From an uncultured Chloroflexia bacterium (GTDB lineage Bacteria; Chloroflexota; Anaerolineae; JAAYZQ01), in the NCBI GenBank assembly GCA_963700285.1, contig CAVOXA010000006.1, forward strand, positions 1 through 64,000: a stretch of 64,000 nt of DNA, read 5' to 3'. A model generated the notes under the pieces. That model did no database searches and was not told where the DNA came from. It worked only from the letters and a program-made list of their open reading frames with translations. The position numbers were made by a program, and so were the translations under genes. Shown here piece by piece: positions 7,614-29,968 of this stretch; position 1 is the stretch's first letter; every line of letters starts with the position of its first letter.

Positions 7614-7673
7614 TACCCTGTACCTTCTGTGGTCGCGTCATAACCGTCTGTACCACTTGCTCAATGTACAAGC

Positions 7674-7731: not shown

Positions 7732-7776
7732 TTTTTAGCTGCTGAGGGGATGAATGCTGAGGAATCTCGGTATTGG

Positions 7777-10491: not shown

Positions 10492-10531
10492 GAACATCCT
10501 TCGTGTTGCGTGACGATGGCCTCACGGTGCA

Positions 10532-10560
10532 AGTATATCATGGCGCAGATGAGCTGTCAA
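10532..10560 (-). promoter_or_regulatory. sigma70-type promoter of MalT-like copy 2 (part of the conserved end module)
   Basis: TTGACA-17 bp-TATACT. Confidence 0.75.
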
Positions 10561-10608
10561 AGGGGATGCCACATCCACAGGAAACAAATCTCGCGTAGGT
10601 GTTAGCGT

Positions 10609-10670
10609 AAGCCGTGCAGTCAGCGGGAACCCAGACGTATTGGGCAGTGCCTCCCATTTTGAGAAGATGC
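10609..10670 (+). repeat. Conserved junction motif J1 preceding a yyaL 3' fragment (putative attachment site)
   Basis: AAGCCGTGCAGTCAGCGGGAACCCAGACGTATTGGGCAGTGC-ct-CCCATTTTGAGAAG; homologous to 13987, 16822 and 28126. Confidence 0.7.
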
Positions 10671-11897
10671 TTTATGACAATTCCCACTTGGCCCGCGTGT
10701 ACCTACACGCCTGGCAGGTCACCGGCGACGAGTTCTTCCGGACCATTACTGAGGAAATCCTCGATTATGTCATTCGGGAAATGACCGATCCTGCCGGAGG
10801 CTTCTATTCCACGCAAGATGCCGACAGCGAGGGCGAAGAGGGCAAGTTTTTCGTCTGGACGCCGGATGAGATCCGGGAGGTTCTGGGCAGATGAGGCAGA
10901 GGATTTCATGGCTGCCTACGGTGTGACACGCCACGGCAACTTTGAGGGCAAGAACATCCTCGAGTTTGTGGGTGACATGAACCAACGAGCTACCCTGACC
11001 GAGGCCCGCCGCGCGCTGTTCGAGGCGCGAGAAAAGCGCGTGCGCCCAGGACGCGACGAGAAGGTCCTGACGTCGTGGAACGGTCTTATGCTGGCCGCTT
11101 TTGCCGAGGCGGCGCGGGCTCTGGATCGCGATGACTACTGCCTGGTCGCTGAGCGCAACGCTGATTTCCTCCTCCGTGAGCTGAGACAGGGGAATGGTCG
11201 TCTGCTGCGGACGTGGAAACGTCGTCCTGAGCATGCCGAAGGAGCAGGCGAGGCCAAGCTCAACGGCTACCTGGAGGACTATAGCTACCTCATCGAGGGC
11301 CTGCTGGAGCTGTACCAGACCACCTTCGATCCCCGATGGTTTTTGGCAGCCCAAGAGCTGGCCGAGACCATGATCGCTCACTTCCAATCACCTGAAGGTG
11401 CGTTTTACGATACCAGCGATGACCACGAGACCCTGATCACCCGGCCTCGCGATCTGCAGGACAACGCCACGCCTTCAGGCAATGCGATGGCCGTCACCGT
11501 CCTGCTGAAAATGGCCGGCTTCACCAATGATCTACGTTATGTCGATGTAGCCCACCAGGCACTGGCTCAGATGCAGCCGATGATGAGCCAGTACCCGTTG
11601 GGCTTTGGCCAGTGGCTCCAGGCGCTCAGCTATGCCCTTTCCAAGCCGCGAGAGATCGCCATTGTCGGTGATCCTGGCTCTGCTGAGACACAGGCTCTTC
11701 TGAGCGTCGTGCGCGATGGCTACCTTCCCTTTCAGGTGATAGCCTTGGCAAAGCCCAATACCGACTCCCTGGCTGTCCCGCTCCTGCAAGATCGAGGACT
11801 GGTGAACGGGCAAGCCGCAGCCTACGTGTGCCGTGATTTTACGTGTCAGGCGCCGGTAACCGAGCCGCAGGCGCTGTTGGCACAGCTACAGGGTTAG
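10653..11897 (+). pseudogene. yyaL: yyaL/DUF255 thioredoxin-domain protein, 3' half (fragment 1)
   Basis: [73 protein letters not shown]; no N-terminal thioredoxin part. Confidence 0.9.
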
Positions 11898-12021
11898 CGG
11901 CAGACGTGGCGGGCCTACCTGCATCCAACAGGCATGCTCCGTTGCGGCAGCTTGACGACTGGCCCATCGTGCATCTGTTCGGATCCAAGACCCGCCAGGT
12001 CTCTTATCAGAGGAGGTTCCT

Positions 12022-12339
12022 ATGTCGGCAAGTGATGACACGGTTATCGTCGAGAACGTCAACGTTACGGGAAAGACGTCTCGCGTGAACGCCGCCAAGT
12101 ACCACGCTATGAGACAGGCCATGCTCCAGGTTCTGCCCTGGGCACAGCCCGGTCTAACGCAGGCCGAGATCCGTGAGGCGGTGGTTCCCCACCTCTCACA
12201 GGACCTCTATCCCGGTGGCGCAACAGCAGGCTGGTGGGCCAAGACGGTCCAGCTCGACCTGGAGGCCAAAGGCCTGGTGATCCGCGAGCCGACCAAGCCC
12301 TTGCGCTGGCACCAGGAGCAGGGGCTGGACAGCGCCTGA
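12022..12339 (+). CDS. Small conserved protein (DUF6958-like)
   Basis: RBS GAGGAGG; GWWAKTVQLDLEAKG motif. Confidence 0.7.
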   Translation: MSASDDTVIVENVNVTGKTSRVNAAKYHAMRQAMLQVLPWAQPGLTQAEIREAVVPHLSQDLYPGGATAGWWAKTVQLDLEAKGLVIREPTKPLRWHQEQGLDSA

Positions 12340-12341
12340 GC

Positions 12342-12728
12342 ATGTCCCTGCATCCGCTCAACCTGGCCGTTCGTTTCGTGCTCGAGATCGCCGCCCTGGT
12401 CGCCATCGGCTACTGGGGCTTTAAGGAACACACGGGCATCCTGCAGTTTGTCCTGGGCCTCGGCCTGCCCCTCCTCGCCGCTGCCGCCTGGGGCATCTTT
12501 GCCGTGCCCGGCGACCGCACTCGCTCCGGGGACGCGCCGGTGCCCGTGCCCGGCGCCCTGCGATTGCTCCTCGAGCTGTCCCTCTTTGCCCTGGCCAGCT
12601 GGGCTTTGTGCGACGCCGGCAGCCCCGTGCTGGCCCTGATCCTGGCCAGCGTTGTCGTCGTGCACTATGCCCTATCCTACGATCGCATCGGCCGGCTGCT
12701 CCGCTACCGTGGCCCCGGAACGGCCTGA
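12342..12728 (+). CDS. YrdB/DUF2568-like membrane protein
   Basis: NLAVRFVLEIAAL...WGIFAVPGD; 4 hydrophobic segments. Confidence 0.75.
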   Translation: MSLHPLNLAVRFVLEIAALVAIGYWGFKEHTGILQFVLGLGLPLLAAAAWGIFAVPGDRTRSGDAPVPVPGALRLLLELSLFALASWALCDAGSPVLALILASVVVVHYALSYDRIGRLLRYRGPGTA

Positions 12729-12801
12729 GACCACCATCGAAAGGAATCCTATGTCTGCCGAATTTCCCACCACCGGCATGAGATGACCCACATCCTGGTC
12801 G

Positions 12802-13338
12802 TTGGCGGAGGCGATGCTCGAGCGCTTTGCAGATCTGCAGGGGACACTCTACGATACCAGCGACGACCACGAGACGCTTATCACTCGCCCTCGTGACCTA
12901 CAGGACAACGCCACGCCATCGGGCAACGCCATGGCAGTCACCGCCCTGCTCAAGCTGGCCGGCTTCACCAACGATTTGCGCTATGTCGACATTGCGCACC
13001 AGGCACTTGCGCAAATTCAGCCGATGATGGCTCAGTACCCGCTGGGCTTTGGCCAATGGCTTCAGGCGCTGGCGTACGCCCTTTCGAAGCCGCGCGAGAT
13101 TGCCATTGTCGGTGATCCCGACTCTCCTGACACCCAAGCCTTGCTGAATGTCGTTCGCGATGGCTACCGGCCCTTCCAGGTTGTGGCGTTGGGGATACCT
13201 ACCACACTGCTGCCCACTGTCCCGCTCCTACAGGAACGGGGACTAGTGAACGGCAAGCCGGCAGCCTATGTCTGTCGCAATTTCGCCTGCCAGACGCCGG
13301 TGACGGAGACGGAGGGGCTTCGGGCGCAATTGGAGTAA
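12802..13338 (+). pseudogene. yyaL: yyaL C-terminal fragment 2
   Basis: [29 protein letters not shown]...AYVCRNFACQTP; fused to an unrelated truncated gene start at about 12751. Confidence 0.9.
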
Positions 13339-13360
13339 GACTCGCCCGCTTTCCATAAAT

Positions 13361-13399
13361 CAAGAACCCGAAGGCCTGCTGTGACCCTTCGGGTTCTTG
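13361..13399. terminator. Hairpin between convergent yyaL fragment and hicA (probable terminator)
   Basis: CAAGAACCCGAAGG ... CCTTCGGGTTCTTG. Confidence 0.65.
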
Positions 13400-13432
13400 C
13401 CCAATTCAGAACCTGCGCACCGTGAGTTCAAG

Positions 13433-13657
13433 TCATAGAAGCTCCAGGAACTTGTCGACATCCAACCGCGCCTGCTTCAGAATGTGGGACAGAGTCGACC
13501 GCTTCACCGGTCGGTGTGCTGGGACAGTGACCTTCAGCAGTTCATCGCCAACGCGCTTCTGAAGTCGAATGTGACTGCCTCGCTGTCGAACCACGGTCCA
13601 TCCGTCCCGTTGCAGAGCACGGATGATCTGGTGGTAAGGCAGGCTTGGCACTTTCAC
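13433..13657 (-). CDS. hicA: HicA-family toxin (mRNA interferase)
   Basis: DGWTVVRQRGSHIRL...VTVPAH...TLSHILKQA. Confidence 0.9.
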   Translation of the reverse strand: MKVPSLPYHQIIRALQRDGWTVVRQRGSHIRLQKRVGDELLKVTVPAHRPVKRSTLSHILKQARLDVDKFLELL

Positions 13658-13857
13658 AGAGCCAACTCCCTCACCAGTGAGTGCTCTCCCGCCACAAAGT
13701 CGTCCTCGACCGGTTCGAGATACAGCTCAATAGCCTCCCGGATGTTCCGCATGGCCTCATCAGCTGTATCGCCTTCGCTGATACAGCCCGGCAGTGCAGG
13801 TACATAGACCGTGTAACCACCCTCATCGCTCGGCTCAAGCACAACTTGAAACTTCAC
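13654..13857 (-). CDS. hicB: HicB-family antitoxin (short, no DNA-binding domain)
   Basis: [35 protein letters not shown]; 4-nt overlap with hicA. Confidence 0.9.
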
Positions 13858-13906
13858 TTCTCACCCCCACCTCACGGTAGCAACTGCTCAACTCCCTCGT
13901 ACAGCT

Positions 13907-13935
13907 ATTGTAGCGCTTCTTGCCCTGCCTGTCAA
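13907..13935 (-). promoter_or_regulatory. sigma70-type promoter of hicBA (part of the conserved end module)
   Basis: TTGACA-17 bp-TACAAT. Confidence 0.75.
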
Positions 13936-13986
13936 ACCGCGGCATACCTTGCCATTGGGCGCAATAAGGCCCGCGCTCAGAGCGCC

Positions 13987-14050
13987 AAGCGGGCTGCCAG
14001 CACCAAACCAGACGTATTGGACTGTGCTGCCACCCACTTTGAGAAGATGC
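13987..14050 (+). repeat. Conserved junction motif J3
   Basis: AAGCGGGCTGCCAGCACCAAACCAGACGTATTGGACTGTGC-tgcca-CCCACTTTGAGAAG. Confidence 0.7.
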
Positions 14051-14829
14051 TTTATGACAATTCACAGTTGGCCCGCGTTTACCTCCACGCCTGGCAGGTA
14101 ACTGGCAACGAGTTCTTTCGAACCATCGCCGAAGAGATCCTGGACTACGTGGTGCGCGAGATGCTCGATCTAGCCGGGGGGTTCTATTCCACTTAGGACG
14201 CCGACAGCGAAGGAATGGAGGGCAAGTTCTTTGTCTGGACGCGGGATGAAATCCGCGATGTGCTCGGCGATCAAGCAGATGCCTTCATGGACGCCTATGG
14301 TGTCACCCGCCGTGGGAATTTCGAGGGCAAGAACATCCTCTAATTCGTCGGTGACATGGACCAACGCCCCACCCTGGCGGAGGCCCCCCGCCGTAAGCTG
14401 TTCGAGGTCCGCGAGAAAGGCATCCACCCTGGCCGAGATGAAAAGGTCCTCACCTCGTGGAATGGGCTGATGCTGGCCGCATTTGCCGAGGCGGCGCGGG
14501 TGCTGGATCGCGACGACTACCGCCAGGTGGCCGAGCGTAATGCCGACTTCCTCCAGCGCGAACTGAGCAGGGAGAACGGACGATTGTTCCACTCATGGAA
14601 GGATGGCGACGCTCGCCTAAACGGTTACTTGGAGGACTATGCCTACCTCAGCGAAGGGCTCCTAGAGCTATACCAGACCACCTTCGATCCCCAATGGTTC
14701 GTGGCAGCCCAGGAACTGGCAGATACGATGATCGCCCACTTCCAGGCACCTGGCGGTGGGTTCTTTGATACCAGCGACGACCACGAGACCCTTATCACCC
14801 GGCTCCGCGACCTGCAGGACAATGCCACG
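14033..14829 (+). pseudogene. yyaL: yyaL fragment 3 ([10 protein letters not shown] to DLQDNAT), with nonsense codons
   Basis: In-frame TAG at 14194 and TAA at 14341; truncated by an attC remnant. Confidence 0.9.
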
Positions 14830-14831
14830 AC

Positions 14832-14896
14832 ACATAACCAATTTTGGCGCGGTTACCGGGCGCGGAGCGGCGTCGGACTGCACGCGCTTGTTAGGC
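14832..14896 (-). repeat. Integron attC site, probably truncated
   Basis: Minus strand GCCTAAC-AAGCGCGTGCAGTCCGACGCCGC...GTTATGT just after the GNAT stop; right inner arm missing. Confidence 0.65.
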
Positions 14897-14912
14897 GCAG
14901 TGCCATGTGGTG

Positions 14913-15737
14913 CTATTCCCAACGTCCGAGGTACCAGTCCGTCGATTCTGTCACAGCGAAGCCGAGCTTCTGCGCAATACGAATGGAGGCTTTGTTTTCG
15001 GAATCGCACTCCCAGCAAGGATTCCTGCCGCGTCTGAAGGCCTCGTCAATGAAGCGGGCGGCTGTGGCGGTCCCGATGCCCTTGTTCTGGTACGCGGCTG
15101 TCGTCTCGATTCCAATGCCGCACTGCAATGGCCCGACGAATTCTGAAGTGCACCAGCAGACCAACTCGCCACGGACTGCCGCAGCGACTCCCCATCCTTG
15201 CGCCGAGAAGCGATCGATTGAGGGCCACATCCATCGCACCTCTTCTGCGACTTGTTCACTATTCACCGTTCCGGCATCGAGCAGCCTTCGGTCAATATTC
15301 ACAAACTCCACGTCGGGCGCCAGCCCACCTGCAATAGTCCGCACGACAAGAGGATGTTCATGAAACAGCTTCCTGCAGCTCGCAGTGATACTATCTGCAA
15401 AAGCGTCGTTCACGGCAGCTGCCACATCAGGTGACACAGCGCGGACGCTGCAGAATTTCAGCCCAGCTGCATGGGCAACAGCCGCGAGTTCCTCACGTAC
15501 AAGGGAGCGCAGAGCATCTCGTGAGCAATTGGAGGAGCAATCCCCACCGACATAGAGACCTTTGTTGCCAAATTCCCACAAAACCGCCGTATCTGCTGTA
15601 CCGACCCCGCTGGTGACCCATAGCCGGGCAAAGGTGTTTCCCGCAGAGACTGACTGCCTCAGCAATGCCAACTGCCGACCCGGGAACAGGCTGGCGTAGT
15701 CTGTAAGACGGTCTATCGATATTTCGGAGAACACCAT
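14913..15737 (-). CDS. GNAT-family acetyltransferase (integron cassette)
   Basis: IGIETTAAYQNKGIGT...WECDSENKASIRIAQKLGF; bounded by attC sites. Confidence 0.85.
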   Translation of the reverse strand: MVFSEISIDRLTDYASLFPGRQLALLRQSVSAGNTFARLWVTSGVGTADTAVLWEFGNKGLYVGGDCSSNCSRDALRSLVREELAAVAHAAGLKFCSVRAVSPDVAAAVNDAFADSITASCRKLFHEHPLVVRTIAGGLAPDVEFVNIDRRLLDAGTVNSEQVAEEVRWMWPSIDRFSAQGWGVAAAVRGELVCWCTSEFVGPLQCGIGIETTAAYQNKGIGTATAARFIDEAFRRGRNPCWECDSENKASIRIAQKLGFAVTESTDWYLGRWE

Positions 15738-15754
15738 TGTGCACCCGCCACTGC

Positions 15755-15854
15755 GCCTAACGGAAAAGTTCAGCCGCCGGGAAAGCCCGCTGAGACTTTC
15801 ATCCCCGTCAGGATTTGGCCGGGCTTTCCCGGTCGGCTGCAACGGGGGTTAGCC
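15755..15854 (-). repeat. Integron attC site (100 bp)
   Basis: Minus strand GGCTAAC...TTGCAGCCGACCGGGAAAGCCC / GGGCTTTCCCGGCGGCTGAA...GTTAGGC; imperfect hairpin with extrahelical bases. Confidence 0.9.
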
Positions 15855-15906
15855 GGGGTGACTTTTCAGAGACTATCCAGTCTGCACGATCTTCATGTGC
15901 TCGACG

Positions 15907-16417
<511 letters not shown>

Positions 16418-16496
16418 TCATCCACGCCAACTCCTATCCAACCACCCACCGAGCCGCCACGCCCACTGACCGGGCAGAGACCTTCGACTTGGCTCC

Positions 16497-16530
16497 ATTA
16501 TACATCAAAGCGTGCTCGCCGACAAGCACG
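16497..16530 (-). promoter_or_regulatory. brnTA promoter with overlapping palindrome
   Basis: TTGTCG-17 bp-TATAAT; CGTGCT...AGCACG inverted repeat over the -35. Confidence 0.65.
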
Positions 16531-16717
16531 CTCTTTTCTCAACCGCCAGCCCGGCTGACAATTGAATAGACCGGACTATTTCGGCCTATCTTTCTTGGTT
16601 CCTAGACCGAATAGGTTCGGCATAACACACCCGAAAGGTTGACTTATGTCGAGTCCTGCGTATGATATGGTAGTCTTGGTGAGTGATCTGGTCACAGTGC
16701 AAGTCCGACGATGAGGT

Positions 16718-16746
16718 ATTATGCAACCAAAACCCCTTTCTGTCAA
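16718..16746 (-). promoter_or_regulatory. Strong leftward promoter facing the cassette array (Pc-like; part of the end module)
   Basis: TTGACA-17 bp-CATAAT. Confidence 0.7.
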
Positions 16747-16821
16747 GGATGATGTCGACGTCTTGGCCCAGAATCTGGCCACGAGCGCCTTTCTCTTACT
16801 CTCGCGGGCAGATGTCAACAC

Positions 16822-16865
16822 AAGCCGGGCCGTCAGCGGAAATCCAGGCGCATTGGATTGTGCAC

Positions 16866-16885
<20 letters not shown>
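16822..16885 (+). repeat. Conserved junction motif J4
   Basis: AAGCCGGGCCGTCAGCGGAAATCCAGGCGCATTGGATTGTGC-ac-CCCACTTTGAG. Confidence 0.7.
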
Positions 16886-17674
<789 letters not shown>

Positions 17675-18067
17675 TTAATGGTTTTGCTCTTGGTCAAGTA
17701 GCCTAGTGAACGAGAGCGACGCTAACTTCCAGCTACCATCTTGCTGCACATATACTTCTGTAACCTCAAAAGGATTGGTGACCTCATGGCCGCCAACCAC
17801 GGCCAACAGCTTGATTCTGTTCAAAAGGATGGCCGTCGTGCCAATGATAGCCACCGACACTTCATGGATATCCGCTTGTTTGTAGTAAATGCCTCCGCTT
17901 TTGATGATATCGAGTTCTCGTACTTTCCCCCAGGATCCTCCCATGTGGACGAACATTGCCTTGTCATGGAAGAGAGCGTCAAGGGTGTCTACCTTGCGCT
18001 CTGCCATCCAGCGCCATTTCTCTTTAGAGAGATTGATGACTTCTTGCTCCAGGTTCACGTTTTGCAT
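17675..18067 (-). CDS. DUF4440 / NTF2-like protein
   Basis: LSKEKWRWMAE...FVHMGG...NPFEVTEVY. Confidence 0.8.
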   Translation of the reverse strand: MQNVNLEQEVINLSKEKWRWMAERKVDTLDALFHDKAMFVHMGGSWGKVRELDIIKSGGIYYKQADIHEVSVAIIGTTAILLNRIKLLAVVGGHEVTNPFEVTEVYVQQDGSWKLASLSFTRLLDQEQNH

Positions 18068-20043
18068 AATTCACTCCTTTTTGACGATGCACACTGATGA
18101 TTAAGGATCTCGCTCAGCCACTTGTCAAAATCAAGTATCCACTGACCATCTCCGGCGCCAAAACCATGAGGCCAACCTTCCAGCACATGGGATTCAACCG
18201 GCACACCGGCCTGTTGCAGGGCGCTGACACACGCCTCAAACTGACGTACAAACGGATCTCTTGTGCCATATAAGAAATATGTGGGTGGCAAATCCGCGGC
18301 CTTGAACTTTTCAACATCTGTAGATGCAACGCTCAGTCTTCCATAAAAGGAATAGATCATTCCGACCGCACTGACATCGGCAGAAATCCTATCCAATGCG
18401 TCCGGCATATAGTCGGGGTCAATGGCGGTTCCATTGATAGTCCCGTCAAAATTCAGTACCAACTCACCCGCCAGGATACCGCCGGCTGAGAAGCCTACAA
18501 CCGCTATATCATTCTCTTCAATGCCTAAATCCGCTGCATGACTGCGGACATACCTCACCGCCCGGGCCAGGTCCAAAGCGCCTTCCTGCATGGTATACGG
18601 CCTCAGCCGATAGTTCACCACAAAACTCTGATACTCAAGCGCGTTCAGATGTTCCGCGACAGGTGTCCCTTCATTCTCATTGCCGCGAAATTGAAAAGCG
18701 CCCCCGGCGCATATCAGCACCGCCCCTTTGACTGCAACTCCTTGTTTGGCGGGAAAGTACACCATATTGGGACGAAAATCAGGCGGATCAAAATACCCGG
18801 CATTGTTTTCCGTATACTCGGTGGTAGTTGGAACATCATCTTCTTCCCAGAGATAAATGTGCCGGGGTATCTCATTTTGTGAAGCACCCGTTATATGTCT
18901 TTGCCAGAATTGAACAGCCAAGTCCACCCATCCTTCCGCATCGGTTCCTGTGCCAAGTCCAAATCCATGCCCTGCACTTTCGTACCGGCGATAGTCAACA
19001 TCCACTCCGGCGTTTTTTAGATTCTCAACACGCCTTTCCACTGTATTGACGTTGGCTATGCCATCGTTAGCGGCGACGGTAATGAAAGCCGGAGAGAAGT
19101 CACTTGAGTAGGTTGATTGTCCGGTATAGGCTATGACGGCTGTCGCCGGTTTCGGGAGATTGCCGCCGCCATAAGCGGATACGCCGTTTAAGGCAATATC
19201 ACCCACCATCCTGGCCCCGGCAGAGCCGCCCCATAACGAATAGTCTTGAGTGCTGACTTCAAGTGTTTCCGCATTACGGAAGATATAAGCTATCGCCGCC
19301 GCCAGGTCTTCGGTAGCCCGTTGCTCACTGCCAATGCGGTAGCGTATGACAAAAGCGTTATACCCATTTTGGCTTATTTCTAAAGCAAGTGGAAATCCTT
19401 CATGAAGGGAACCAACGTAGGAGAAACCTCCTCCAGGACATACGATGGCAAACGGAGCTCCGGCTTTCCCCGGAAGAAAAAGAGGCCGGTAGCCTCTTTG
19501 GTGGGATCCTTGTTGCTTTTGCTCGTCGGTATAGAAATCGTAGAATATTGTTTTGCCATCGCTCACTTGGTCTATCATGTGGTTGATTGCACCCACGACA
19601 ATTGCAGGCTCCACATGGCTGTGATACGGCAAGAGTGAAGCAACATTATTTAGCCGCGTGTCATAATAAGCGGTATTGTCATCCCGTGGTAGCACAGAGT
19701 TACCAAAATCCTCAAGCGCCGGATGATTGACAACATCGCGGATAAAGTGACTGGTTGTTAGATGGTGGTATAGTTCACCGGTTTCTTCTGGATATTCCGG
19801 TTCGGTCATAGGCCTACTTGCGTCAATCGTGTCCTCCTGTGTACGACTTGCGTCGTCTATTTCACCGGTCCCTTCCAAGTATTCCGATTCAGTTATAGTC
19901 CTACCTGCTCCAACCGTACCCTCCTGCGTGCAACTTGAAAGGAATACTATAAGAGCCAACAACATCAAGCTACCGCTAAAAGTTGAAACACTTCTTTGTA
20001 ACCAACCACGACCAGAATTGCATCTTTTACGCCTCAATTTCAT
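18055..20043 (-). CDS. Tandem alpha/beta hydrolase (esterase), probably a lipoprotein
   Basis: Two GxSAG motifs (GGSAGA, GFSAGG) and two HGFG motifs; lipobox-like LSSC. Confidence 0.8.
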   Translation of the reverse strand: MKLRRKRCNSGRGWLQRSVSTFSGSLMLLALIVFLSSCTQEGTVGAGRTITESEYLEGTGEIDDASRTQEDTIDASRPMTEPEYPEETGELYHHLTTSHFIRDVVNHPALEDFGNSVLPRDDNTAYYDTRLNNVASLLPYHSHVEPAIVVGAINHMIDQVSDGKTIFYDFYTDEQKQQGSHQRGYRPLFLPGKAGAPFAIVCPGGGFSYVGSLHEGFPLALEISQNGYNAFVIRYRIGSEQRATEDLAAAIAYIFRNAETLEVSTQDYSLWGGSAGARMVGDIALNGVSAYGGGNLPKPATAVIAYTGQSTYSSDFSPAFITVAANDGIANVNTVERRVENLKNAGVDVDYRRYESAGHGFGLGTGTDAEGWVDLAVQFWQRHITGASQNEIPRHIYLWEEDDVPTTTEYTENNAGYFDPPDFRPNMVYFPAKQGVAVKGAVLICAGGAFQFRGNENEGTPVAEHLNALEYQSFVVNYRLRPYTMQEGALDLARAVRYVRSHAADLGIEENDIAVVGFSAGGILAGELVLNFDGTINGTAIDPDYMPDALDRISADVSAVGMIYSFYGRLSVASTDVEKFKAADLPPTYFLYGTRDPFVRQFEACVSALQQAGVPVESHVLEGWPHGFGAGDGQWILDFDKWLSEILNHQCASSKRSELCKT

Positions 20044-20061
20044 GGCTTCCTTATTTTACCA

Positions 20062-20475
20062 CTACGTTTCAGTGTCTCCCCCTATCAAATATTGCTCGTC
20101 ACTGACTTTTTCCAGCCACTCGACACCCTGGCCTTCGGCTCTTTCGATAATGGCAATATGGGTCAGCGCGGTGGTGGGAGCGGCCCCATGCCAGTGCTTC
20201 TCCCCCGGCTCAAACCAAACCACGTCGCCTGGTCCGATTTCTTCAATGGGGCCGCCCCAGCGTTGTACGCGACCACAACCGGCGGTCACAATCAGGGTCT
20301 GGCCCAGAGCATGGGTGTGCCAGGCGGTGCGGGCACCGGGTTCAAAAGTGACACTGGCCCCATACACGCGGGCCGGAGCGGGCGTATCGAACAACGGATC
20401 AACACGCACGTTGCCGGTAAAATACTCGATCGGCCCCTTTCCGGAAGGCTGGGAGCCATTTCTCTTGATTTCCAT
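20062..20475 (-). CDS. Cupin-domain protein
   Basis: [14 protein letters not shown]...GEKHWHGA. Confidence 0.9.
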
Positions 20476-20600
20476 GTTCGTTCCTTTCTTTCCGGACGGT
20501 ATTCGAAACCGGACAGCCGCAAGGGATTGGCCGTCTTTCAACCTGATATTTCAGGTCTCTTGTGGCCAATCCCTCATATGAGACAACGCTGCATTTTTCT

Positions 20601-21808
<1,208 letters not shown>

Positions 21809-21937
21809 TAACCGGGTGTTAACAGGCAGCATACTGGACTCTGTGCCTCATGCTTTCGACTCGGACCACACTTGCGTCGTCGGCGGGTACCATGCTATAA
21901 TGGTTGTGCTGCGACAATTGGTTTAGAGGTGGGAACT

Positions 21938-22180
21938 ATGAGAGAGTACCTTTTCACCGTCATCATCGAGCGCCAGCCTGAGGGCGAATACCTGGTCTCT
22001 GTGCCTGCCCTGCCGGGTTGTTATACCGAAGGAGGCACTATGGACGAAGCCCGCAGTATGGCCGCCGATGCGATCCGCGCCTACTGCGCCAGTCTGCTCA
22101 AGCACGGAGACCCGATTCCTGAAGAGCCTGCAGTGGAGCAGTACGTTGGGCGCTTGAGTGTGGTTTTGGAGCTTGCCTGA
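21938..22180 (+). CDS. hicB: HicB-family antitoxin
   Basis: YLVSVPALPGCYTEGGTMDEARSMAADAI; TGnTATAAT promoter at about 21893-21901. Confidence 0.88.
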   Translation: MREYLFTVIIERQPEGEYLVSVPALPGCYTEGGTMDEARSMAADAIRAYCASLLKHGDPIPEEPAVEQYVGRLSVVLELA

Positions 22181-22407
22181 TGCCCCGTTTGCCTACGGTG
22201 AGTCCTCGCCAGCTTGTCCGGGCTCTCGAGCACGTCGGCTTTGAGATTGACCACCAGACGGGCAGCCATGTTGTTCTGTGGCGCGCTAGCGATGGCTCCC
22301 GTGTGGTCGTGCCCTGGCATAGCCGAGATCTCGGTCGAGGGTTAACACTACGGATTATCAAGAGTGCTGGCTTGACCCGCGATGAGTTCATTGAGTTGCT
22401 GAAGTGA
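22180..22407 (+). CDS. hicA: HicA-family toxin
   Basis: GFEIDHQTGSHVVL...VVVPWH...GLTLRIIKSAGL; TGATG coupling with hicB. Confidence 0.88.
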   Translation: MPRLPTVSPRQLVRALEHVGFEIDHQTGSHVVLWRASDGSRVVVPWHSRDLGRGLTLRIIKSAGLTRDEFIELLK

Positions 22408-22602
22408 CCCAGTGAAGGACAGGCCTGCCCGTTAACCTTTCCCCTCGAAGGACTCCCCCATCCGTTCCCATGTGTCATCTGGAGAACAGCAGGTTCTGAC
22501 ACATCGCCATTCGCCCGACGCGCTGCTTGAGGTAGCCCGACAGGCAAGTCGCTATCGAAACCTGCAATCTGGCTCTAGCTCAAGGCTCTCAAGTCGGTAT
22601 GA

Positions 22603-22942
22603 GAGTGATGAGCGCGAAACCTTGATGAGCCAGTATCCACTGGGTTTCGGCCAGTGGCTCCAGGCGTTGGCATATGCCCTGTCAGAGCCGCGAGAGATAG
22701 CCATCGTCGGCGATCCGGACTCCGCCGACACCCAGGCCTTGCTAAGCGTCGTTCGCAATGGCTATCGACGCTTCCAGGGCGACGACCTGGAAGCACCGGA
22801 CGCGCAGTCGCCTGCTGTCCCGCTCCTGCACGACCGAGGCCTGATGGATGGGCATGCTGCAGCCTACGTGTGCCGTGGCTTTGCTTGCCAGGCACCGGTC
22901 ACTGATCGAGGGGCCCTACAGTCGCTACTGGAAACAGGGTGA
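22603..22942 (+). pseudogene. yyaL: yyaL C-terminal fragment 6 with internal deletion
   Basis: SDERETL joined to MSQYPLGFGQWL...AYVCRGFACQAP. Confidence 0.85.
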
Positions 22943-23092
22943 CGGAACAACTGCACTTGCCAACCACCCGGAAGCAAGTGACGAAGAATCGGGACGCCTT
23001 GCCTAAAGGATCAGCCAATCAGGCCGCAGAACATCTGGAATGGATCGAATAATCAGGCCGGGGACACACCGGCTCATGCTCGCTCTTGGTGT

Positions 23093-23223
23093 GCCTAGCG
23101 GTTGGCGTTACCCGCAAGTGGGCGGGTGTGGATACGGATTGGGAGCGGGAAAAAAACCTGAAGCCACGAAAAAGGCTAAAAAACGCGCAGACTCCCACTT
23201 GTCGGGTGCACGCTGTGTTAGCC
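23093..23223 (-). repeat. Integron attC site (131 bp, degenerate R' GCTAGGC)
   Basis: Minus strand GGCTAAC-ACAGCGTGCACCCGACAAGTGGG...CCCACTTGCGGGTAACGC-CAACC-GCTAGGC. Confidence 0.85.
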
Positions 23224-23271
23224 CGCTTTTTGCCCATTAGGTTTTCGGTTTTGTTGTGGCACAGGATGCGC

Positions 23272-23718
23272 TTACGTACCGGCTTCCAGCAATTGCTTCA
23301 TATTGCGGATACTGCTCGCATCCTGCGCTTTGATTCGCTTGCCAAGAAAACCCTCAGCCCACCGAAATATGCCTATGGCTACATACTCACCATGAAAAGT
23401 CAACTGCGTACCATTGTCTTTTGGGACAAGCGTCGTTACTCCATTAGCCTTTTTGAATGGAAAAGGGATTTTCATGGACTGTACACCGTGCTGGTTGGAC
23501 GGCTCCCATCGCGTGACCTTCATCATGACTTCAGTTGTGCCACCAGGAGTTCTAGAAAGCACTTCAAAAGTGGAACCAACGCCAGGTGTACCAGGAGATG
23601 TCCATTCTGCAGATATGGTATTCGCTTGGTATTTTGCATAGTTGGCTGGATCTGCTAGAAATGCAAAGACATCCTGAGGTGGGCGACTGATGAATTCGGT
23701 TGTTTCAAAAGTTATCAT
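23272..23718 (-). CDS. SRPBCC/polyketide cyclase-like protein (AT-rich integron cassette)
   Basis: ISRPPQDVFAFLADPAN...GVGSTF; RBS GAGGAG; bounded by attC sites. Confidence 0.8.
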   Translation of the reverse strand: MITFETTEFISRPPQDVFAFLADPANYAKYQANTISAEWTSPGTPGVGSTFEVLSRTPGGTTEVMMKVTRWEPSNQHGVQSMKIPFPFKKANGVTTLVPKDNGTQLTFHGEYVAIGIFRWAEGFLGKRIKAQDASSIRNMKQLLEAGT

Positions 23719-23835
23719 TGAAAACTCTCCTCTCTATAAATAAACGGTTGATTTCCACAGGGGCAAGTTGAAGGTTCTGCACATAATGAGATGAGCTTAT
23801 ATAATAGCCGATCTCGTATCAACATGTAAGAAGCG

Positions 23836-23925
23836 GGCTAACGGCCTTGAGCTGAACGGCCCGGCCAAGACACCTGCTCATTCTCGCGCCGCCCTGGCCG
23901 GGTCCGCTCCAGCGAGTGGTTGGCC
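23836..23925 (-). repeat. Integron attC site (90 bp)
   Basis: Minus strand GGCCAAC-CACTCGCTGGAGCGGACCCGGCCA...TGGCCGGGCCGTTCAGC-TCAAGGCC-GTTAGCC. Confidence 0.9.
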
Positions 23926-24124
23926 CGCTCTAGCCAATCAACGGGAGCCTGGCCCGACAATTCTCCTATGGTTCCCAGCATCTAGCCTGCAGAGGCCCAA
24001 AGACAAAGACCTAGGCTGATCATGGGCCCTGTTTACCAGCCGCTTCTGAGCGCGGTCGATTTCTCCTTGAGCGGTCACCAAGCTCGAGCCGACTAGGATT
24101 GGGGTGACTAGAACTCCTGGCTCA

Positions 24125-24799
24125 TTAGGAAGAAGTTGAAGCGGATCGACGGAGTGAGACCCCAGCCGTGATTTGTGCCAGCCCTCCCAGAGCTGGCGAC
24201 ACGAGTTGAAACGCTTTTGCATCTAAGAATGCCGGGATGCCGACCACACCATAGACCATGAAGAGGAATCCACTCCACTTCCACAAGATCTTGGAGCGCC
24301 ATATCGCAAGACCAATGACTATGTTGCCGATATTCCACAAGATTCCGGAAAGGAATTGGATGGGCAGAAATGGCTCCAGGAAGGTCTGATCCATCACAGC
24401 GATCATCTCGGGCTTTCCCTGTTCGACAAGGCGGCCAATCGCGGGGACGACGAACGCTGCGAAGCCAGTTATCGGCAGGAACAACACAAGGAACCCAACC
24501 GTGATTGCCATCCCTGCAAAGGCGAGCTTTTCGTGGCTGGACCTGGAGAGATAAGCGTACAGGGCAAAGACGCCCAGAACGAAGAGCGCGAGCGAGATTC
24601 CCGCCAACATTATTCCAAGCCGATACTCGAACGAGTTTGCCCCGATGGCAAACTCCAAGTTCCTTTCCGGCGCAGTTGGCACGTTGCGGCTTAGGATGCC
24701 CTGTGGGATCAAAGCCAACCCAGCCAAGATAAGTGCGATTCCTCCTAGAGCCACGCGCTTGAGAAAGACCGGTTCGTTGTTTGTTTTGGATGTGTCCAA
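24125..24799 (-). CDS. Multi-TM membrane protein (cassette)
   Basis: About 6 hydrophobic segments; RBS AAGGAG; lies between attC-like sites. Confidence 0.7.
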   Translation of the reverse strand: MDTSKTNNEPVFLKRVALGGIALILAGLALIPQGILSRNVPTAPERNLEFAIGANSFEYRLGIMLAGISLALFVLGVFALYAYLSRSSHEKLAFAGMAITVGFLVLFLPITGFAAFVVPAIGRLVEQGKPEMIAVMDQTFLEPFLPIQFLSGILWNIGNIVIGLAIWRSKILWKWSGFLFMVYGVVGIPAFLDAKAFQLVSPALGGLAQITAGVSLRRSASTSS

Positions 24800-24856
24800 A
24801 TTTGACTCCTTTGGTATCCATGCTGCTGGAGATATCCGGCGACAACCTTATGAGCC

Positions 24857-24912
24857 GCCTAACGATAAGGACTATGCGGCGGCGGAACGCCGCATAATCC
24901 TTATCGTTAGGC
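24857..24912. repeat. Near-perfect palindromic attC-like site
   Basis: GCCTAACGATAAGGACTATGCGGCG-gcggaa-CGCCGCATAATCCTTATCGTTAGGC. Confidence 0.65.
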
Positions 24913-24923
24913 GGTAAGCGAGC

Positions 24924-25307
24924 CTAGCCAATGCCCGGAAATCGGCTAAAGCCGACGAATCGAGGTGTTACGGTAAGGACCGCTCCCTTGGAGGAGAGCC
25001 GCCGCATACCCTCAATGACGGCCTCGTTTGGCTCACCGTAGATATCGACACGCGTGGTGGTGATGTACTGCATCACATCACGCATGTACGGGTCGGAGAG
25101 TTGCCAATGAGACAGGATTGATTCCGAGTCTCGATGAACCTGGACGCCATGTGCACGCATCTCGTTGTCATCGATGAAAACCTCCGCCATGAGCTGAGGA
25201 CCGTTGGCCTCAAGGAAATCCGTTGACTTTCGAGACGCATCTTTGAACTTTTCGAGGGCACCATTCTCGATCCGAAAGGTCGTGACAAAGACTATGAGGT
25301 CAGACAC
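24924..25307 (-). CDS. Hypothetical protein (ABM/dimeric alpha-beta barrel-like)
   Basis: GTG start with GGGAGG RBS; QVHRDSES...H pattern. Confidence 0.6.
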   Translation of the reverse strand: MSDLIVFVTTFRIENGALEKFKDASRKSTDFLEANGPQLMAEVFIDDNEMRAHGVQVHRDSESILSHWQLSDPYMRDVMQYITTTRVDIYGEPNEAVIEGMRRLSSKGAVLTVTPRFVGFSRFPGIG

Positions 25308-25355
25308 TTCTTCCTCCCTACCTTGCTGTTCTTGGGCTCCTAGCATGATAGATGC

Positions 25356-26582
25356 CTACCTTTTTCCCGCGATGTCTGCCACAATATGGGCCGCGTCGTC
25401 TCCAACACCGGAAAAGACGCCGGACTGGGCAGTGTACAGCCAGGGCAAGCCAACGAAGTACAGCCCCGGAAAGCCGGTGACGCCGCGCTTTTGAATCGGA
25501 TACCCGTCAGCGCCAAGGACCGGCAACTGGACCAGGCCAAAGTCGAACGTGTAGCCCGTAGCCCAGATCACGCTGGTAATGCCGGCGGACTGGACATCAA
25601 GTTCTGTAATCGCCTCGGCATCGTACCCGTCTCGTAGTTCAGGCAGCGTTTCTTGGGGCGCGTCAAGCCCCGTCTTCTCAATGTAGTCATCAATCTTCTT
25701 GAGCAAGTCGGCCTGAAACTTGTCCGACTTGGCCAGGCTTTCCTTCAGGTCGGGGGCCAACATGATCTTGCCCTCCTGGGCGCCCTGAATGCGGCCCAAC
25801 AGCACCACGCCATCCCGTGCGAATTGGTGCGGGTTGAGGGTGCGGCCGCCGTCCTTGCCTGACACAAGGGGGTTCGAGGCGAATCTATCTCTCGGGGAGG
25901 GAAGCTTATCCACCGTTACACTAGTGAGCCCGGCCCTGTCCATCCACCAGACGATGTCGTGGCCCCGGTAGCGACGTGGTCCCCGTCCGGCGCCGCTCAT
26001 GCAGAGGTATACCTGGCGCCCACTCTGATAGAGCTCTTCGGCAATCTGGCCTCCCGATTGGGCTGAGCCGACGACGAGCACTGCGCCGGCCAGCAGCGCC
26101 TCAGGATTGCGATACTCGCTGGAGTGGAGTTGCTGGATCTCCACTGGCAGGTTGGCGCTGAGGGCTGGAATCCTGGGTTTCTGGAAAAGGCCTGTGGCGA
26201 TCACCACGTTGGATGTCTTGATTACCGCCTCATTGGTGTGCACCAGGTAGCCAGCCCCGTTCTTTTCTACCGAGCTCACCCGGACACCGTATCGGATTGG
26301 CAAGCTGAAGCGTTCTATATAGTCTTCCAAGTAGGCGACGACATCTTCCCGGGGCATGAATCCATCTGGATCGTCCCCTTGGTACTCGGCGCCCGGCATC
26401 CGAACCGTCCAGTTCGGGGTAACCAGGGTGAACGAGTCCCAGCGGTGATTACGCCATGCCTCTGCAGGCTGCGACGCCTGTTCAAGGATCGTGTGTGCTC
26501 GACCCTGCTGACTCAAATGGTAGCTGACAGCCAACCCCGCTTGCCCGCCACCGACGATAACAGTTTCCACATGTTCAGACAT
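25356..26582 (-). CDS. Flavin-containing monooxygenase / TrkA-CzcO-like oxidoreductase
   Basis: GGGQAG, RWDSFTLVTP, QLHSSEYRNP, VVGSAQSGGQIAEEL, IWATGY. Confidence 0.9.
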   Translation of the reverse strand: MSEHVETVIVGGGQAGLAVSYHLSQQGRAHTILEQASQPAEAWRNHRWDSFTLVTPNWTVRMPGAEYQGDDPDGFMPREDVVAYLEDYIERFSLPIRYGVRVSSVEKNGAGYLVHTNEAVIKTSNVVIATGLFQKPRIPALSANLPVEIQQLHSSEYRNPEALLAGAVLVVGSAQSGGQIAEELYQSGRQVYLCMSGAGRGPRRYRGHDIVWWMDRAGLTSVTVDKLPSPRDRFASNPLVSGKDGGRTLNPHQFARDGVVLLGRIQGAQEGKIMLAPDLKESLAKSDKFQADLLKKIDDYIEKTGLDAPQETLPELRDGYDAEAITELDVQSAGITSVIWATGYTFDFGLVQLPVLGADGYPIQKRGVTGFPGLYFVGLPWLYTAQSGVFSGVGDDAAHIVADIAGKR

Positions 26583-26632
26583 TGGTTATTCCTCCAAATA
26601 CACAGTTGGGCTTTCTAAAACTACCCGTGCTG

Positions 26633-26853
26633 CTAGCTGCTGACCTTGAGATACAGGATGAACATCAGTACCGAGCCGAAAACGACAAGGTAGATGAAGA
26701 CGGCCCATGGCGTACCTGCTCCCGGCGCCCCAGAAGGCAGGGAGTTCAAGGTTGCTGAACCGTATGGTGACGGCATTGGTGCCCCCAACCAACACCAGTG
26801 CGGCGAACGCAAGTAGAGTGGCGCGCTCGGACAGGGCGAACACCATGGCATTC
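26633..26853 (-). pseudogene. EamA/DMT transporter remnant
   Basis: N-terminal GGTNAVTIRFSNLELPAFWGAG joined out of frame to C-terminal YLVVFGSVLMF. Confidence 0.6.
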
Positions 26854-27059
26854 CAAGAAGAGCCAATGCAACTCATCACAGCCTGGACGCCAGGTTCGCC
26901 TGGCGCGAGGCAGTCCGACGCTCTCGGCCCACATATTCTGAGGCCTGTACAGAACGGGAAGAGCATAGCCTTGACGGAGCTGTCTTGTGAGGAAACCTGG
27001 CCTTAGTGCCTTGTATCTTGGTGACAGAACTGGATCGATGCGGTTGAGCTCACCAATAC

Positions 27060-27088
27060 ATCATACACCGGAAAGGATGATTTGTCAA
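27060..27088 (-). promoter_or_regulatory. Pc-like promoter divergent from the intI remnant
   Basis: TTGACA-17 bp-TATGAT; downstream leader homologous to that of the 16718-16746 promoter. Confidence 0.7.
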
Positions 27089-27173
27089 GTTAAGATTACG
27101 TCAATAATATAAATTGTGTCGTGGAGGAACCACGCCCACCATGCCTATCTCGAGCAGAGCCCAGGAGGGCCTG

Positions 27174-27379
27174 GTGAAGTGAAGCCATCCACCTCCCGAA
27201 CTGTCGCTGGACAGTGCAAACACCGCTCTATCGGCGCCGAGGAAGCCGACAACAACTGCTTCAAACGCTACATCTACTTCCACGATAGCCGCCACCCGGC
27301 CGAGATGGGCACCCCGGAACTCCAGGCCTTTCTCAACCACCTGGCCATGGAGGGCAACGTTGCCGCCTCCACCCAGAAC
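27174..27379 (+). pseudogene. intI: Integron integrase N-terminal (SAM-like) domain remnant
   Basis: KHRSIGAEEA...KRYIYFHDSRHPAEMGTPELQAFLNHLAMEGNVAASTQN; catalytic domain absent. Confidence 0.85.
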
Positions 27380-27600
27380 CCCTGTGCATAATCCGGGCCA
27401 TGCCGACCATCGATTCCGACGGATGCCGTCCACCTGTTCTGGACCATACCATCCATTCGTACCGATGGCATGACGTCCAGTTTTTCCGGGGCACCGCAAC
27501 TGGTGGTCGCCTCGGTTCGGAATCCGTGGACGACATACTCCGGAATCTGAATGGATGAACTGATCCCATAGGAAGCGGCGCTGACTAACCTTACTCAGTT

Positions 27601-28080
27601 GTGGCATTCTCTGCCTCGGAAATACAAAGGGAGATCGGTCAGGCAATGGGAGACACGGACCAGAAGGTGCTGGCTCGTTCCTACCTTGCCATGGTGCATA
27701 TGGGCCAGCACCAGCTCGGACAGGCCCGCGACCTGCTGTCTGAGGCGCAGGCTGTCGCAAGGGATTGGCCTTTCCCGCCCACCGAGGCAGCAGTGCTCTG
27801 GGCGGAAGCAAGGCTAGCGGCAGTCGAAGAGCGTTGGACAGAAGCCTTGGGTGCGTTCGAGCCGCTGGTTGATACCTATGCCCAGTTTGGCATGCAATGG
27901 GATCGGGCCCGCACTCTGGTCGATCGGACCGGGGCATACGCAACTCGTGGGGAAGCAGCCGATTTCGGCCAGGCACGATCCTTGCTGCAGGAGTCACATG
28001 CCATGTTTCAAGAAATGGGCATCCCGCGTTATGCCGAGTTGGTACAGAAGAGATTGGGCACCTTGCCCGGCCAGACTTGA
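27601..28080 (+). pseudogene. TPR-repeat C-terminal fragment of a large STAND/cyclase-type protein
   Basis: Helical repeats ending ARSLLQESHAMFQEMGIPRYAELVQKRL; no clear start. Confidence 0.55.
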
Positions 28081-28125
28081 TTTCCTGCTGGGGCTGCAGG
28101 TCACGAAAGCAGAACCAGGCACCGG

Positions 28126-28425
28126 ACGGGCCGTCAGCAGCAAGCCCATCTGCAGCGGTTTGTCCATGGCGTACACCACTTGGAGAAGATGCTCTACGAC
28201 AAAGCCCAACTGGCCCGCGTTTACCTCCATGCCTGGCAGGTCGCCGGCAACGATTTCCTTCGAACCGTCACTGAAGTGATCCTCGATTACATTCTGCGGG
28301 AAATGCTCGATCCGGCGGGAGGATTCTATTCTACGCATCACGCCGACAGCGAGGGCGAGGAGGTCAAGTCTTTCGTCTGGACGCCCGACGAGATCCGCGC
28401 GGTCCTAGGCAATGAGGCAGACGCA
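28126..28425 (+). pseudogene. yyaL: Degenerate junction J7 plus yyaL fragment 7
   Basis: ACGGGCCGTCAGCAGCAA motif followed by [20 protein letters not shown]...GGFYSTHHADSEGEE...[10 protein letters not shown]. Confidence 0.85.
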
Positions 28426-28455
28426 TTGTCACGCCGTGATACACTGACTCACAGA

Positions 28456-29685: not shown

Positions 29686-29754
29686 TGCCTATTCCTCTCT
29701 CCCCTTGATTGGAATCGTGCTGGACCTCTGACCAATCTGTTCCCGGCCAGTGCC

Positions 29755-29940: not shown

Positions 29941-29968
29941 TGCAATCCCTGCCCGGGGTTCGCTGCGA

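What the first reader, a model, noticed from the sequence alone, without database searches (positions are those of the whole stretch)
10532..28425. Tandem accretion hotspot built on repeated 3' halves of yyaL: candidate undescribed integrative system
Seen in sequence: seven + strand yyaL/DUF255 fragments (10653, 12802, 14033, 16866, 21333, 22603, about 28176). They represent at least six copies, because five cover the DHETL segment and fragment 7 lies beyond them. None has the 5' half. Four start at the same P/H-H-F/L-E-K/R-M-L-Y-D codons, and the copies differ at many synonymous positions. Unrelated cargo (TA pairs, integron cassettes, reductases) sits between them. Established knowledge: elements that integrate inside a gene can carry a replacement 3' end and displace the old one, and repeated integration gives tandem arrays. 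Inference: an element family targets yyaL at W-x-V-P-H-F-E-K, each element bringing its own allele of about 1.25 kb, which would be an unusually long replacement. An alternative is that the fragments act as homologous-recombination landing pads or orphan C-termini, as in Rhs arrays. I do not know yyaL as a described integration target. No matching recombinase is in the window.
Basis: partly seen in the sequence, partly recalled or inferred. Interest (0 to 1): 0.9.

Follow-up and report, generated by a model that had tools for sequence, protein, structure and literature searches.

The report
Integrase scars stacked in yyaL gene
This bacterial chromosome holds six broken-off back halves of one gene (yyaL), four of them cut at the same two bases where, in related genomes, a ~130 kb mobile element splits the gene while carrying a whole spare copy, so the stack is likely the residue of repeated insert-and-repair cycles that each left cargo genes behind.

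Summary
There are seven pieces of six diverged yyaL/DUF255 3' halves. Four start at the same GA of the F-E codons, behind a ~65 bp motif (J) found nowhere else in the genome. The same junction occurs in 8 of 23 genomes of the family, so it is not a misassembly. The recombinase was found in other families of the class. Large serine recombinases (LSRs) sit on yyaL 5' halves cut at that same GA (11 junctions read). In three genomes one contig holds the whole element: 5' half, LSR, ~130 kb with conjugation genes, an intact spare yyaL, J, then the 3' half. J+3' half is therefore an attR. The element carries a whole gene, not a 3' replacement. In the window's family, intact genes are host 5' halves joined to 3' halves from a shared mobile pool. 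This fits insertion, then loss of the LSR arm, which renews the target. No yyaL-linked LSR was found in this family, and some orphans are mosaics, so homologous recombination may now drive growth. DUF255 is already a listed LSR target, and spare copies are known in other elements. Stacks of orphan halves were not found in print. Verdict: new variant of a known kind.

The parts
1..10590 (-). Cargo left of the first attR: two MalT-like regulators (120-2956 and 7775-10595, 86% identical), three zinc-ADH genes, DUF4386. The window is the start of contig C6; the intact yyaL or 5' half probably lies in the gap between C7 and C6.
10601..10662 (+). J motif 1 (element-side arm of attR) with inferred crossover GA at 10661-10662
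10661..11897 (+). Orphan yyaL 3' half 1, full length, one 1-nt insertion near 10889 (real or long-read error)
12022..12728 (+). Cargo: DUF6958 and DUF2568 genes
12850..13338 (+). Orphan half 2, J end deleted, DHETL to stop
13340..13975 (-). Hairpin plus HicA toxin (13433-13657) and upstream HicB-like gene; the same unit precedes J in G006 and (decayed) G011, and 99%-identical pieces occur in contigs of two other studies
13977..14042 (+). J motif 3 with GA at 14041-14042
14041..14829 (+). Orphan half 3, two internal stops, cut at 14829 by an attC-like cassette end
14830..16800 (-). Cargo: GNAT gene between attC-like ends, BrnT toxin (16112-16405) and neighbour
   Evidence: attC reading is by eye
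16812..16875 (+). J motif 4 with GA at 16874-16875
16874..17300 (+). Orphan half 4, ~300 nt internal deletion near 17089-17097
17301..21330 (-). 4 kb, 52% GC insert (aldo-keto reductase pieces, DUF4440, esterase, cupin) that likely splits one copy into pieces 4 and 5
21331..21808 (+). Orphan piece 5, likely continuation of half 4
21872..22407 (+). HicB-HicA toxin-antitoxin pair
22611..22942 (+). Orphan half 6, J end and middle deleted
22945..28100 (.). Cargo: Polyketide_cyc2, DUF4386, palindromic attC-like site 24857-24912, flavin monooxygenase, integron-integrase N-terminal fragment 27116-27391, TPR remnant
28115..28184 (+). J motif 7 (type B, similar to the left arm of the full elements of family f36) with GA at 28183-28184
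28183..28427 (+). Orphan half 7, outermost and most diverged, truncated
28430..37531 (.). Further variable DNA; sequence shared with the congeneric genome G001 resumes at 37532

Best explanation
The array is likely a stack of attR scars left by large-serine-recombinase ICE-like elements, which in related genomes split yyaL at the GA of the F-E codons and carry a whole spare yyaL inside their attR end, and whose recombinase arm would later be lost so that the target is renewed. Shown (in relatives): attL is the host 5' half joined to a convergent LSR gene; attR is J joined to the host 3' half; the spare gene lies between the backbone and J. Inferred cycle: (1) an element inserts, giving 5'half-LSR-backbone-spare-cargo-J-3'half; (2) recombination between the host 5' half (or attL) and the spare deletes LSR and backbone, leaving host5'+spare3'-cargo-J-old 3'half with a usable attB; (3) the next element repeats this, adding one 3'half-cargo-J unit per round, oldest outermost. 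Nested insertion into the spare would add units in the same way. Orphans then decay, take integron cassettes and TA pairs, and are reshuffled by homologous recombination.
For: Whole element on one contig in G582 (single-contig genome, ~128 kb), G495 (~136 kb) and G488 (~131 kb), with the same parts on separate contigs in G650, G706 and G501. attL junction read 11 times, always ending at PHFE (4, 7). Among the LSR homologues fetched, yyaL lay downstream only in G382 and in 3 metagenome loci of 56-67% identity; the other 89 of 93 loci showed none, some with little downstream DNA. 23 of 32 database LSRs end in an antisense-yyaL tail (scores 58-179 against 29-45 for the rest; cut-off chosen after seeing). 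Arms mirror each other about the GA (16/30 in G582, 17/30 in G382). The window's type-B J resembles the f36 left arm outside the bases shared with attB (shuffle p 0.0035 for W7, 0 of 2000 for G001). Spare alleles of G582, G495, G488, G650 and G197 are 79-100% alike in the 5' half and 88-100% in the 3' half, against 66-72% (5') and 60-68% (3') to host halves. G382 has attL, a conjugation backbone followed by an intact yyaL, and 4 orphans. G426 shows the restored state: same upstream DUF456 gene as at G382's attL, host-type 5' half, cargo, J, 3' half. In the window's family, 7 intact genes (6 with J or orphan pieces downstream; G013's contig ends first) are rejected as a clade in the 5' half (p-AU 0.005, with G005 added) but form one clade with three orphans in the 3' half (SH-aLRT 96). 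G006's gene switches from G008/G012 type to pool type between -28 and +57 of the GA, and a G008/G012-type body survives as a G006 orphan (96 of 111 informative sites). dN/dS after J is like intact genes.
Against: No yyaL-linked LSR or lone 5' half in any of 23 genomes of the window's family, though 12 have other LSR matches; most are fragmented MAGs and G000's own junction falls in a gap. Two G006 orphans are pool-type for their first ~90-200 nt and host-type after, which is what homologous integration of a J-bearing circle, or later gene conversion, would give, not a clean LSR cut. No G006 orphan carries the reciprocal segment among the three J orphans scored. G630 lost its LSR arm but kept an element-type spare far from the host flank, so arm loss does not always restore the host locus. 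Type-A J (W1, W3) shows no significant likeness to the f36 or f59 arms (p 0.25-0.66; W4 0.03). In f36, where full elements are common, more than one orphan was seen only in G615. G426's intact 3' half is closest to its own orphan (89%), not to G382's spare (75%). G495 and G488 spares are identical, so the three complete elements are not independent.
Confidence: 0.7

Rival explanations
1. J originated as an LSR arm, but in this family the array now grows without the LSR. Homologous recombination between tandem 3' halves pops out J-3'half-cargo circles, which enter other cells and integrate by a single crossover in the conserved ~200 nt after the site. This is close to the first reader's replacement or landing-pad idea and can run alongside the best explanation.
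For: No cognate LSR in 23 genomes. Mosaic orphans with switches downstream of the GA. Same cargo units in several genera at 79-84% identity and a 99%-identical HicAB unit in other studies. G018's intact 3' half is 83-98% identical per window (mostly 95-98%) to a G006 orphan of another genus.
Against: DNA right after J evolved under purifying selection and is interleaved with intact alleles; a J-linked pseudogene lineage would be neutral and clustered unless constantly converted. J keeps a similar ~65-75 bp left edge against unrelated cargo, as expected of ends of distinct elements. Alleles are only ~80% identical, poor substrates for RecA (general knowledge).
Confidence: 0.2
2. Non-autonomous mini-elements (J-GA-3'half-cargo) are integrated site-specifically at the GA by an LSR supplied in trans, each bringing its own 3' replacement.
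For: G006's intact gene switches lineage within -28..+57 of the GA; G018's changes near it too; intact genes share a mobile pool of 3' halves.
Against: It needs an attR x attB reaction, which serine integrases normally do not perform (established knowledge, not tested here). Every attL seen has the LSR, never a 3' half, after the GA. No cognate LSR in the family.
Confidence: 0.06
3. The halves are a kept reservoir of variant C-termini, as in Rhs/CDI orphan arrays, selected to diversify YyaL.
For: Intact genes do exchange 3' halves with the pool.
Against: Orphans are decaying (stops, deletions, insertions), differ mostly at synonymous sites, and their shared start is explained by an LSR site.
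Confidence: 0.02
4. Misassembly of strain variants in a metagenome bin.
For: G000 is 89% complete, 6.5% contaminated and rich in frameshifts. No public run spans the stretch.
Against: Copies are ~20% apart. The same junction is in 8 of 23 family genomes and two other families. The congeneric G001 has a different array at the same chromosomal locus.
Confidence: 0.02

Closest known systems
Streptococcal ICEs with a single serine integrase inserted in rumA (Ambroset et al. 2016, PMC4701971; passages read)
   Same: One LSR, site inside a dispensable gene which is disrupted, att site inside the 3' end of the integrase gene so that its C-terminus changes on integration (here the tail reads antisense yyaL).
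   Different: Different target and host. The passages read mention no spare copy of the target and no stacks of orphan halves.
Site-specific LSRs and target gene clusters (Durrant et al., PMC10083194; passages and supplement search)
   Same: Resolvase+Recombinase+Zn-ribbon proteins, 2-bp core, distant LSR clades hitting one site. PF03190/DUF255 is listed as a target (7 of 1069 target clusters against 0 of 908 random, FDR 0.065).
   Different: Only an enrichment row: no site, element structure or spare gene was found there (six 12-mer probes found no yyaL attB row). Whether their DUF255 site is this GA is unknown.
GMT islands and other MGEs that carry a homologue of the gene they disrupt (Mahata et al., bioRxiv 10.1101/2023.03.28.534373; one passage, abstract and outline)
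   Same: Intragenic insertion compensated by a homologue inside the island.
   Different: Different recombinase system; the passage says nothing of the spare renewing the target or of arrays of orphan halves. Its references 13 and 41 were not seen.
Tandem accretion of ICE/IME/CIME at att sites (PMC5704250, PMC7563491; passages), and SCC composite islands at rlmH (recalled)
   Same: Repeated site-specific insertion, decay to cargo-only units, oldest and most decayed units farthest from the target.
   Different: There the target is a gene end kept intact and units are separated by short att repeats. Here the site is mid-gene and each unit is bounded by a 1.2 kb diverged gene half.
Integrons / CALIN arrays
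   Same: Look of an array of small cargo and TA genes; some attC-like cassettes and an intI fragment sit inside it.
   Different: J has no consensus hairpin, no integron integrase lies beside yyaL, and the junction is a serine-integrase site.

Membership tests
attR of a site-specific large serine recombinase element | Cognate LSR with Resolvase, Recombinase and Zn-ribbon domains at the partner junction | tested here: met
   In relatives (G382, G582). Not in the window's own genome or family.
attR of a site-specific large serine recombinase element | attL and attR share only a very short core and together rebuild the target gene | tested here: met
   5' halves end and 3' halves start at the F-E codons on one contig in G582, G495, G488; the window's four junctions are in register.
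attR of a site-specific large serine recombinase element | Element arms form an imperfect inverted repeat about the central dinucleotide | tested here: met
   16/30 (G582) and 17/30 (G382) mirror matches; no shuffle control. For the window only the left arm exists; type B resembles the f36 arm, type A does not significantly.
attR of a site-specific large serine recombinase element | Recombination activity at the site | not testable with these tools
   Needs an assay or circle-junction reads.
ICE (source element in G582/G382) | VirB4-like ATPase and coupling protein | tested here: met
   G382: VirB4-like and TraD/TrwB-like hits, below NCBIfam cut-offs. G582: TraG-D_C/TrwB above Pfam cut-off, AAA_10, Tad-type ATPase, M23.
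ICE (source element in G582/G382) | Relaxase and oriT | tested here: inconclusive
   No relaxase family hit among the proteins scanned (25, of 52 ORFs over 230 aa plus 4 others).
ICE (the window's own units) | Own integrase and conjugation module | tested here: not met
   None in the window; none of the conjugation queries hit G000. The units are cargo-only remnants.
CIME (cis-mobilizable element) | Retains both attL and attR without integrase | tested here: inconclusive
   attR kept in 4 units; no attL in the assembly, the left end is in a gap. In G001 the left end is an intact gene, not attL.
Integron | intI-attI platform and attC hairpins at unit boundaries | tested here: not met
   J does not fold; no intI by intact yyaL in relatives; only a 91-aa intI fragment inside cargo.
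3'-end replacement elements (e14/icd type, recalled) | Element arm next to the att site supplies the replacement end of the target | tested here: not met
   All 11 attL junctions run into the LSR gene.

The most novel reading that the evidence does not exclude
In this family the system has become a self-renewing, integrase-free cassette array built on a housekeeping gene: J-3'half-cargo units pop out and re-enter yyaL across genera, each restoring the gene and its landing site, so yyaL works as an integron-like platform. The source ICEs also carry a spare whose att codons are altered (T for V before PHF, T for L after M), possibly to avoid self-insertion.
Probability: 0.25. Interest if true: 0.75.

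Novelty: new variant of a known kind. Interest (0 to 1): 0.52.

Why it matters
It explains how an element that destroys its own target mid-gene can still build a long accretion hotspot: the spare gene both covers the loss and likely renews the site. Each orphan half is then a dated record of one visit, and a conserved gene's 3' half becomes a mobile pool shared across genera, which would mislead single-gene trees. It also delimits a family of ~130 kb Anaerolineae ICE-like elements and gives two distant LSR clades (32% identical) with inferred attachment sites, ready for testing as integration tools.

Tried and rejected
Tyrosine recombinase or integron platform: 7 PF00589 matches in G000; the nearest, on C7 about 14 kb from the contig end and conserved in G001, reads as a generic Xer-like protein (by eye) and has no link to J. 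RNA or ssDNA hairpin for J: 0 consensus pairs. J as a free MITE: no copy away from yyaL in G000; one partial J without a yyaL piece in G012. J as coding sequence: frame not kept across copies. A shared integrase inside the family's arrays: shared cargo is SARP/STAND regulators, DinB and TA pairs. Class survey: 262 of 401 genomes matched; of 6 multi-match genomes outside the family, 5 were checked: 2 have the junction, 2 are paralogues, 1 is a contig break; G239 was not examined. Genome-collection scan gave 80 ordinary loci; L074 starts at its contig edge at residue 264 and cannot be judged. attL pattern in viral contigs: 0. Plasmid collection: 5 distant LSRs, about 30% identity. Public runs: none holds half the words; contigs are short and span no whole unit, so no habitat claim is made. 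Earlier findings: nothing in 3 look-ups. The G018 duplicate (100% identical, L030) was not used as evidence. The MLYD count (80 of 80) is biased by the search pattern and was not used. G615's attL GA and G424's inverted C220 piece were not placed by the script and are left out of the 11.


Full report
Observation. The window is the first 64 kb of contig C6 of a 7.05 Mb, 22-contig bin, 89% complete. Self-comparison shows seven + strand yyaL pieces at the stated places, 72-81% identical. None has 5'-half sequence; the genome's only PF03190 match is a distant paralogue on C10. Mapped on an intact relative, pieces 4 and 5 abut and flank a 4 kb low-GC insert, so there are six copies. Four begin at the same GA of the F-E codons (10661, 14041, 16874, 28183) behind a ~65 bp motif, J, which occurs nowhere else in the genome and has no consensus fold. 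Right after J the copies differ mostly at synonymous sites (dN/dS 0.07-0.09, intact genes 0.05), so they diverged as working genes and decayed later.

It is not an artefact. In the 23 genomes of the family, every close match that is not the start of an intact gene begins at or after residue 260 of 703. The J junction is seen in 8 of 23 (G000, G001, G006, G007, G011, G016, G019, G022), and orphan pieces without a visible J in G002 and G018. The congeneric G001 has an intact yyaL and a different array between the same flanks; its upstream flank matches the end of G000's contig C7, so G000's intact gene or 5' half likely lies in the gap. None of 80 yyaL loci from other lineages has a duplicated half. 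No public run spans the stretch.

The recombinase. A class survey (262 of 401 genomes matched) led to G382 and G197, in two other families of the class (Anaerolineae is inferred from gene content and nearest named matches), with halves cut at the same codon. In G382 a lone 5' half runs directly into a convergent large serine recombinase gene. Three metagenome loci with the closest homologues show the same junction. A second LSR clade, 32% identical, uses the same site in family f36. In all, 11 attL junctions were read, all ending at PHFE. 23 of 32 database homologues end in a tail that reads as antisense yyaL (threshold set after seeing the scores). Left and right element arms mirror each other about the GA, and the window's type-B J resembles the f36 left arm, while type A does not significantly. 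J plus 3' half is therefore an attR; this is shown in relatives and inferred by homology for the window.

The spare gene. In G582 (one contig), G495 and G488 one contig holds, in order, 5' half, LSR, 128-136 kb, an intact yyaL, about 170 bp ending in J, and the 3' half. The interior has a coupling protein, VirB4-like and Tad-type ATPases, M23 peptidase, primase, RadC and helicase genes; no relaxase was recognised. The intact copies form an element-borne group distinct from host halves. They have T for V before PHF (G582, G495, G488, G650, G197, G630 and, separately, G382), whereas 75 of 80 unrelated genes have V or I there. This hints at a protected site, but it rests on about two independent cases. 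G382 shows the backbone followed by an intact yyaL and cargo, plus four orphans. So the element does not carry a 3' replacement at its att site; it carries a whole gene.

How the stack grows (inferred). One insertion leaves one orphan. More need a fresh attB each round. Deleting LSR and backbone by recombination between the host 5' half and the spare leaves host5'+spare3'-cargo-J-old half, with a usable site. G426 has that layout at the host locus. In the window's family, intact genes are chimeras: their 5' halves do not group (p-AU 0.005) while their 3' halves form one clade with orphans (support 96; G013 was included although its contig ends before any array). G006's gene switches lineage between -28 and +57 of the GA, and its ancestral-type 3' body survives as an orphan. 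J-linked sequences are not one clade (p-AU 1.35e-5).

What counts against it. No yyaL-linked LSR or lone 5' half was found in the family. Two G006 orphans switch lineage ~90-200 nt after the GA, which points to homologous recombination or gene conversion. G630 lost its LSR arm without restoring the host locus. Long stacks are nearly absent from f36, where full elements are common. I therefore hold the attR identity at about 0.9, the full cycle at 0.7, and growth mainly by homologous recombination of cargo circles in this family at 0.2; the two can coexist.

Comparison with what is known. It works like the rumA ICEs of streptococci: one serine integrase, a disrupted dispensable gene, the att site inside the integrase gene (PMC4701971, passages). 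DUF255 is a listed LSR target in Durrant et al. (PMC10083194, passages and supplement rows). Islands that carry a homologue of the gene they disrupt are reported (bioRxiv 10.1101/2023.03.28.534373, one passage and outline). Tandem accretion with decay is well described for gene-end targets (PMC5704250, PMC7563491, passages). rulB elements disrupt their target with no spare noted in the passages read (PMC4542609). I found no paper on yyaL elements, on Anaerolineae serine-integrase ICEs, or on stacks of orphan gene halves in searches (0 hits each) or in the listings of 48, 54, 95 and 98; the library lacks most subscription journals. The window's units fail the ICE and integron tests and are best called cargo-only remnants of LSR elements.

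Verdict. Real, explained at the level of site and source element, with the growth step inferred. New variant of a known kind; interest 0.52.

Noticed in passing
window:120-2956 and 7775-10595: Two MalT-like LuxR regulator genes 86% identical over 2.9 kb, around three zinc-ADH paralogues; related clusters lie on C4 and C10 and in G001's array.
   Followed up: partly
window:43355-43758: Exact 203 bp tandem duplication (100% identical), possibly an assembly artefact.
   Followed up: no
window:60760-63595: Two tandem paralogues (~475 aa, 67% nucleotide identity) that look like wax-ester synthase/acyltransferases by eye.
   Followed up: no
L123:13303-15018, L253:15536-17254: The att site lies inside the 3' end of the LSR gene, so integrated and excised forms would have different C-termini, as in rumA ICEs; this tail is a handy marker of yyaL-targeting LSRs in protein databases.
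   Followed up: partly
L266:909-2091: In G424 a J-3' half lies inverted and upstream of an intact, host-5'-type yyaL whose 3' half starts with the E-R-M allele.
   Followed up: no
L272-L295 (G014, G020): The two family genomes with no yyaL match carry many LSRs related to the f36 clade (9 matches in G014), inserted at other sites.
   Followed up: partly
L232, L311-L315: The source elements pair a Tad/Flp-type pilus module with VirB4- and TraD-like genes and arrays of TPR/NB-ARC genes; no known relaxase was recognised. G582's element also has a family B DNA polymerase gene and DUF6079.
   Followed up: partly
L025:3278-3908, L030:5957-6181, L028:8499-8786, window:13433-13657: Toxin-antitoxin-type pairs (MNT-HEPN, HicAB, CopG/BrnA-like) very often sit directly after a yyaL stop codon in these arrays and may stabilise deposited cargo.
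   Followed up: no
L030:6517-8380: G018 has a 100% identical ~1.6 kb repeat of the yyaL 3' end plus TA pair: a recent tandem duplication or an assembly artefact.
   Followed up: no
window:10661 (site): The target codons are among the most conserved of the family; a human homologue (SPATA20, recalled, untested) might offer a pseudo-site for these LSRs.
   Followed up: no
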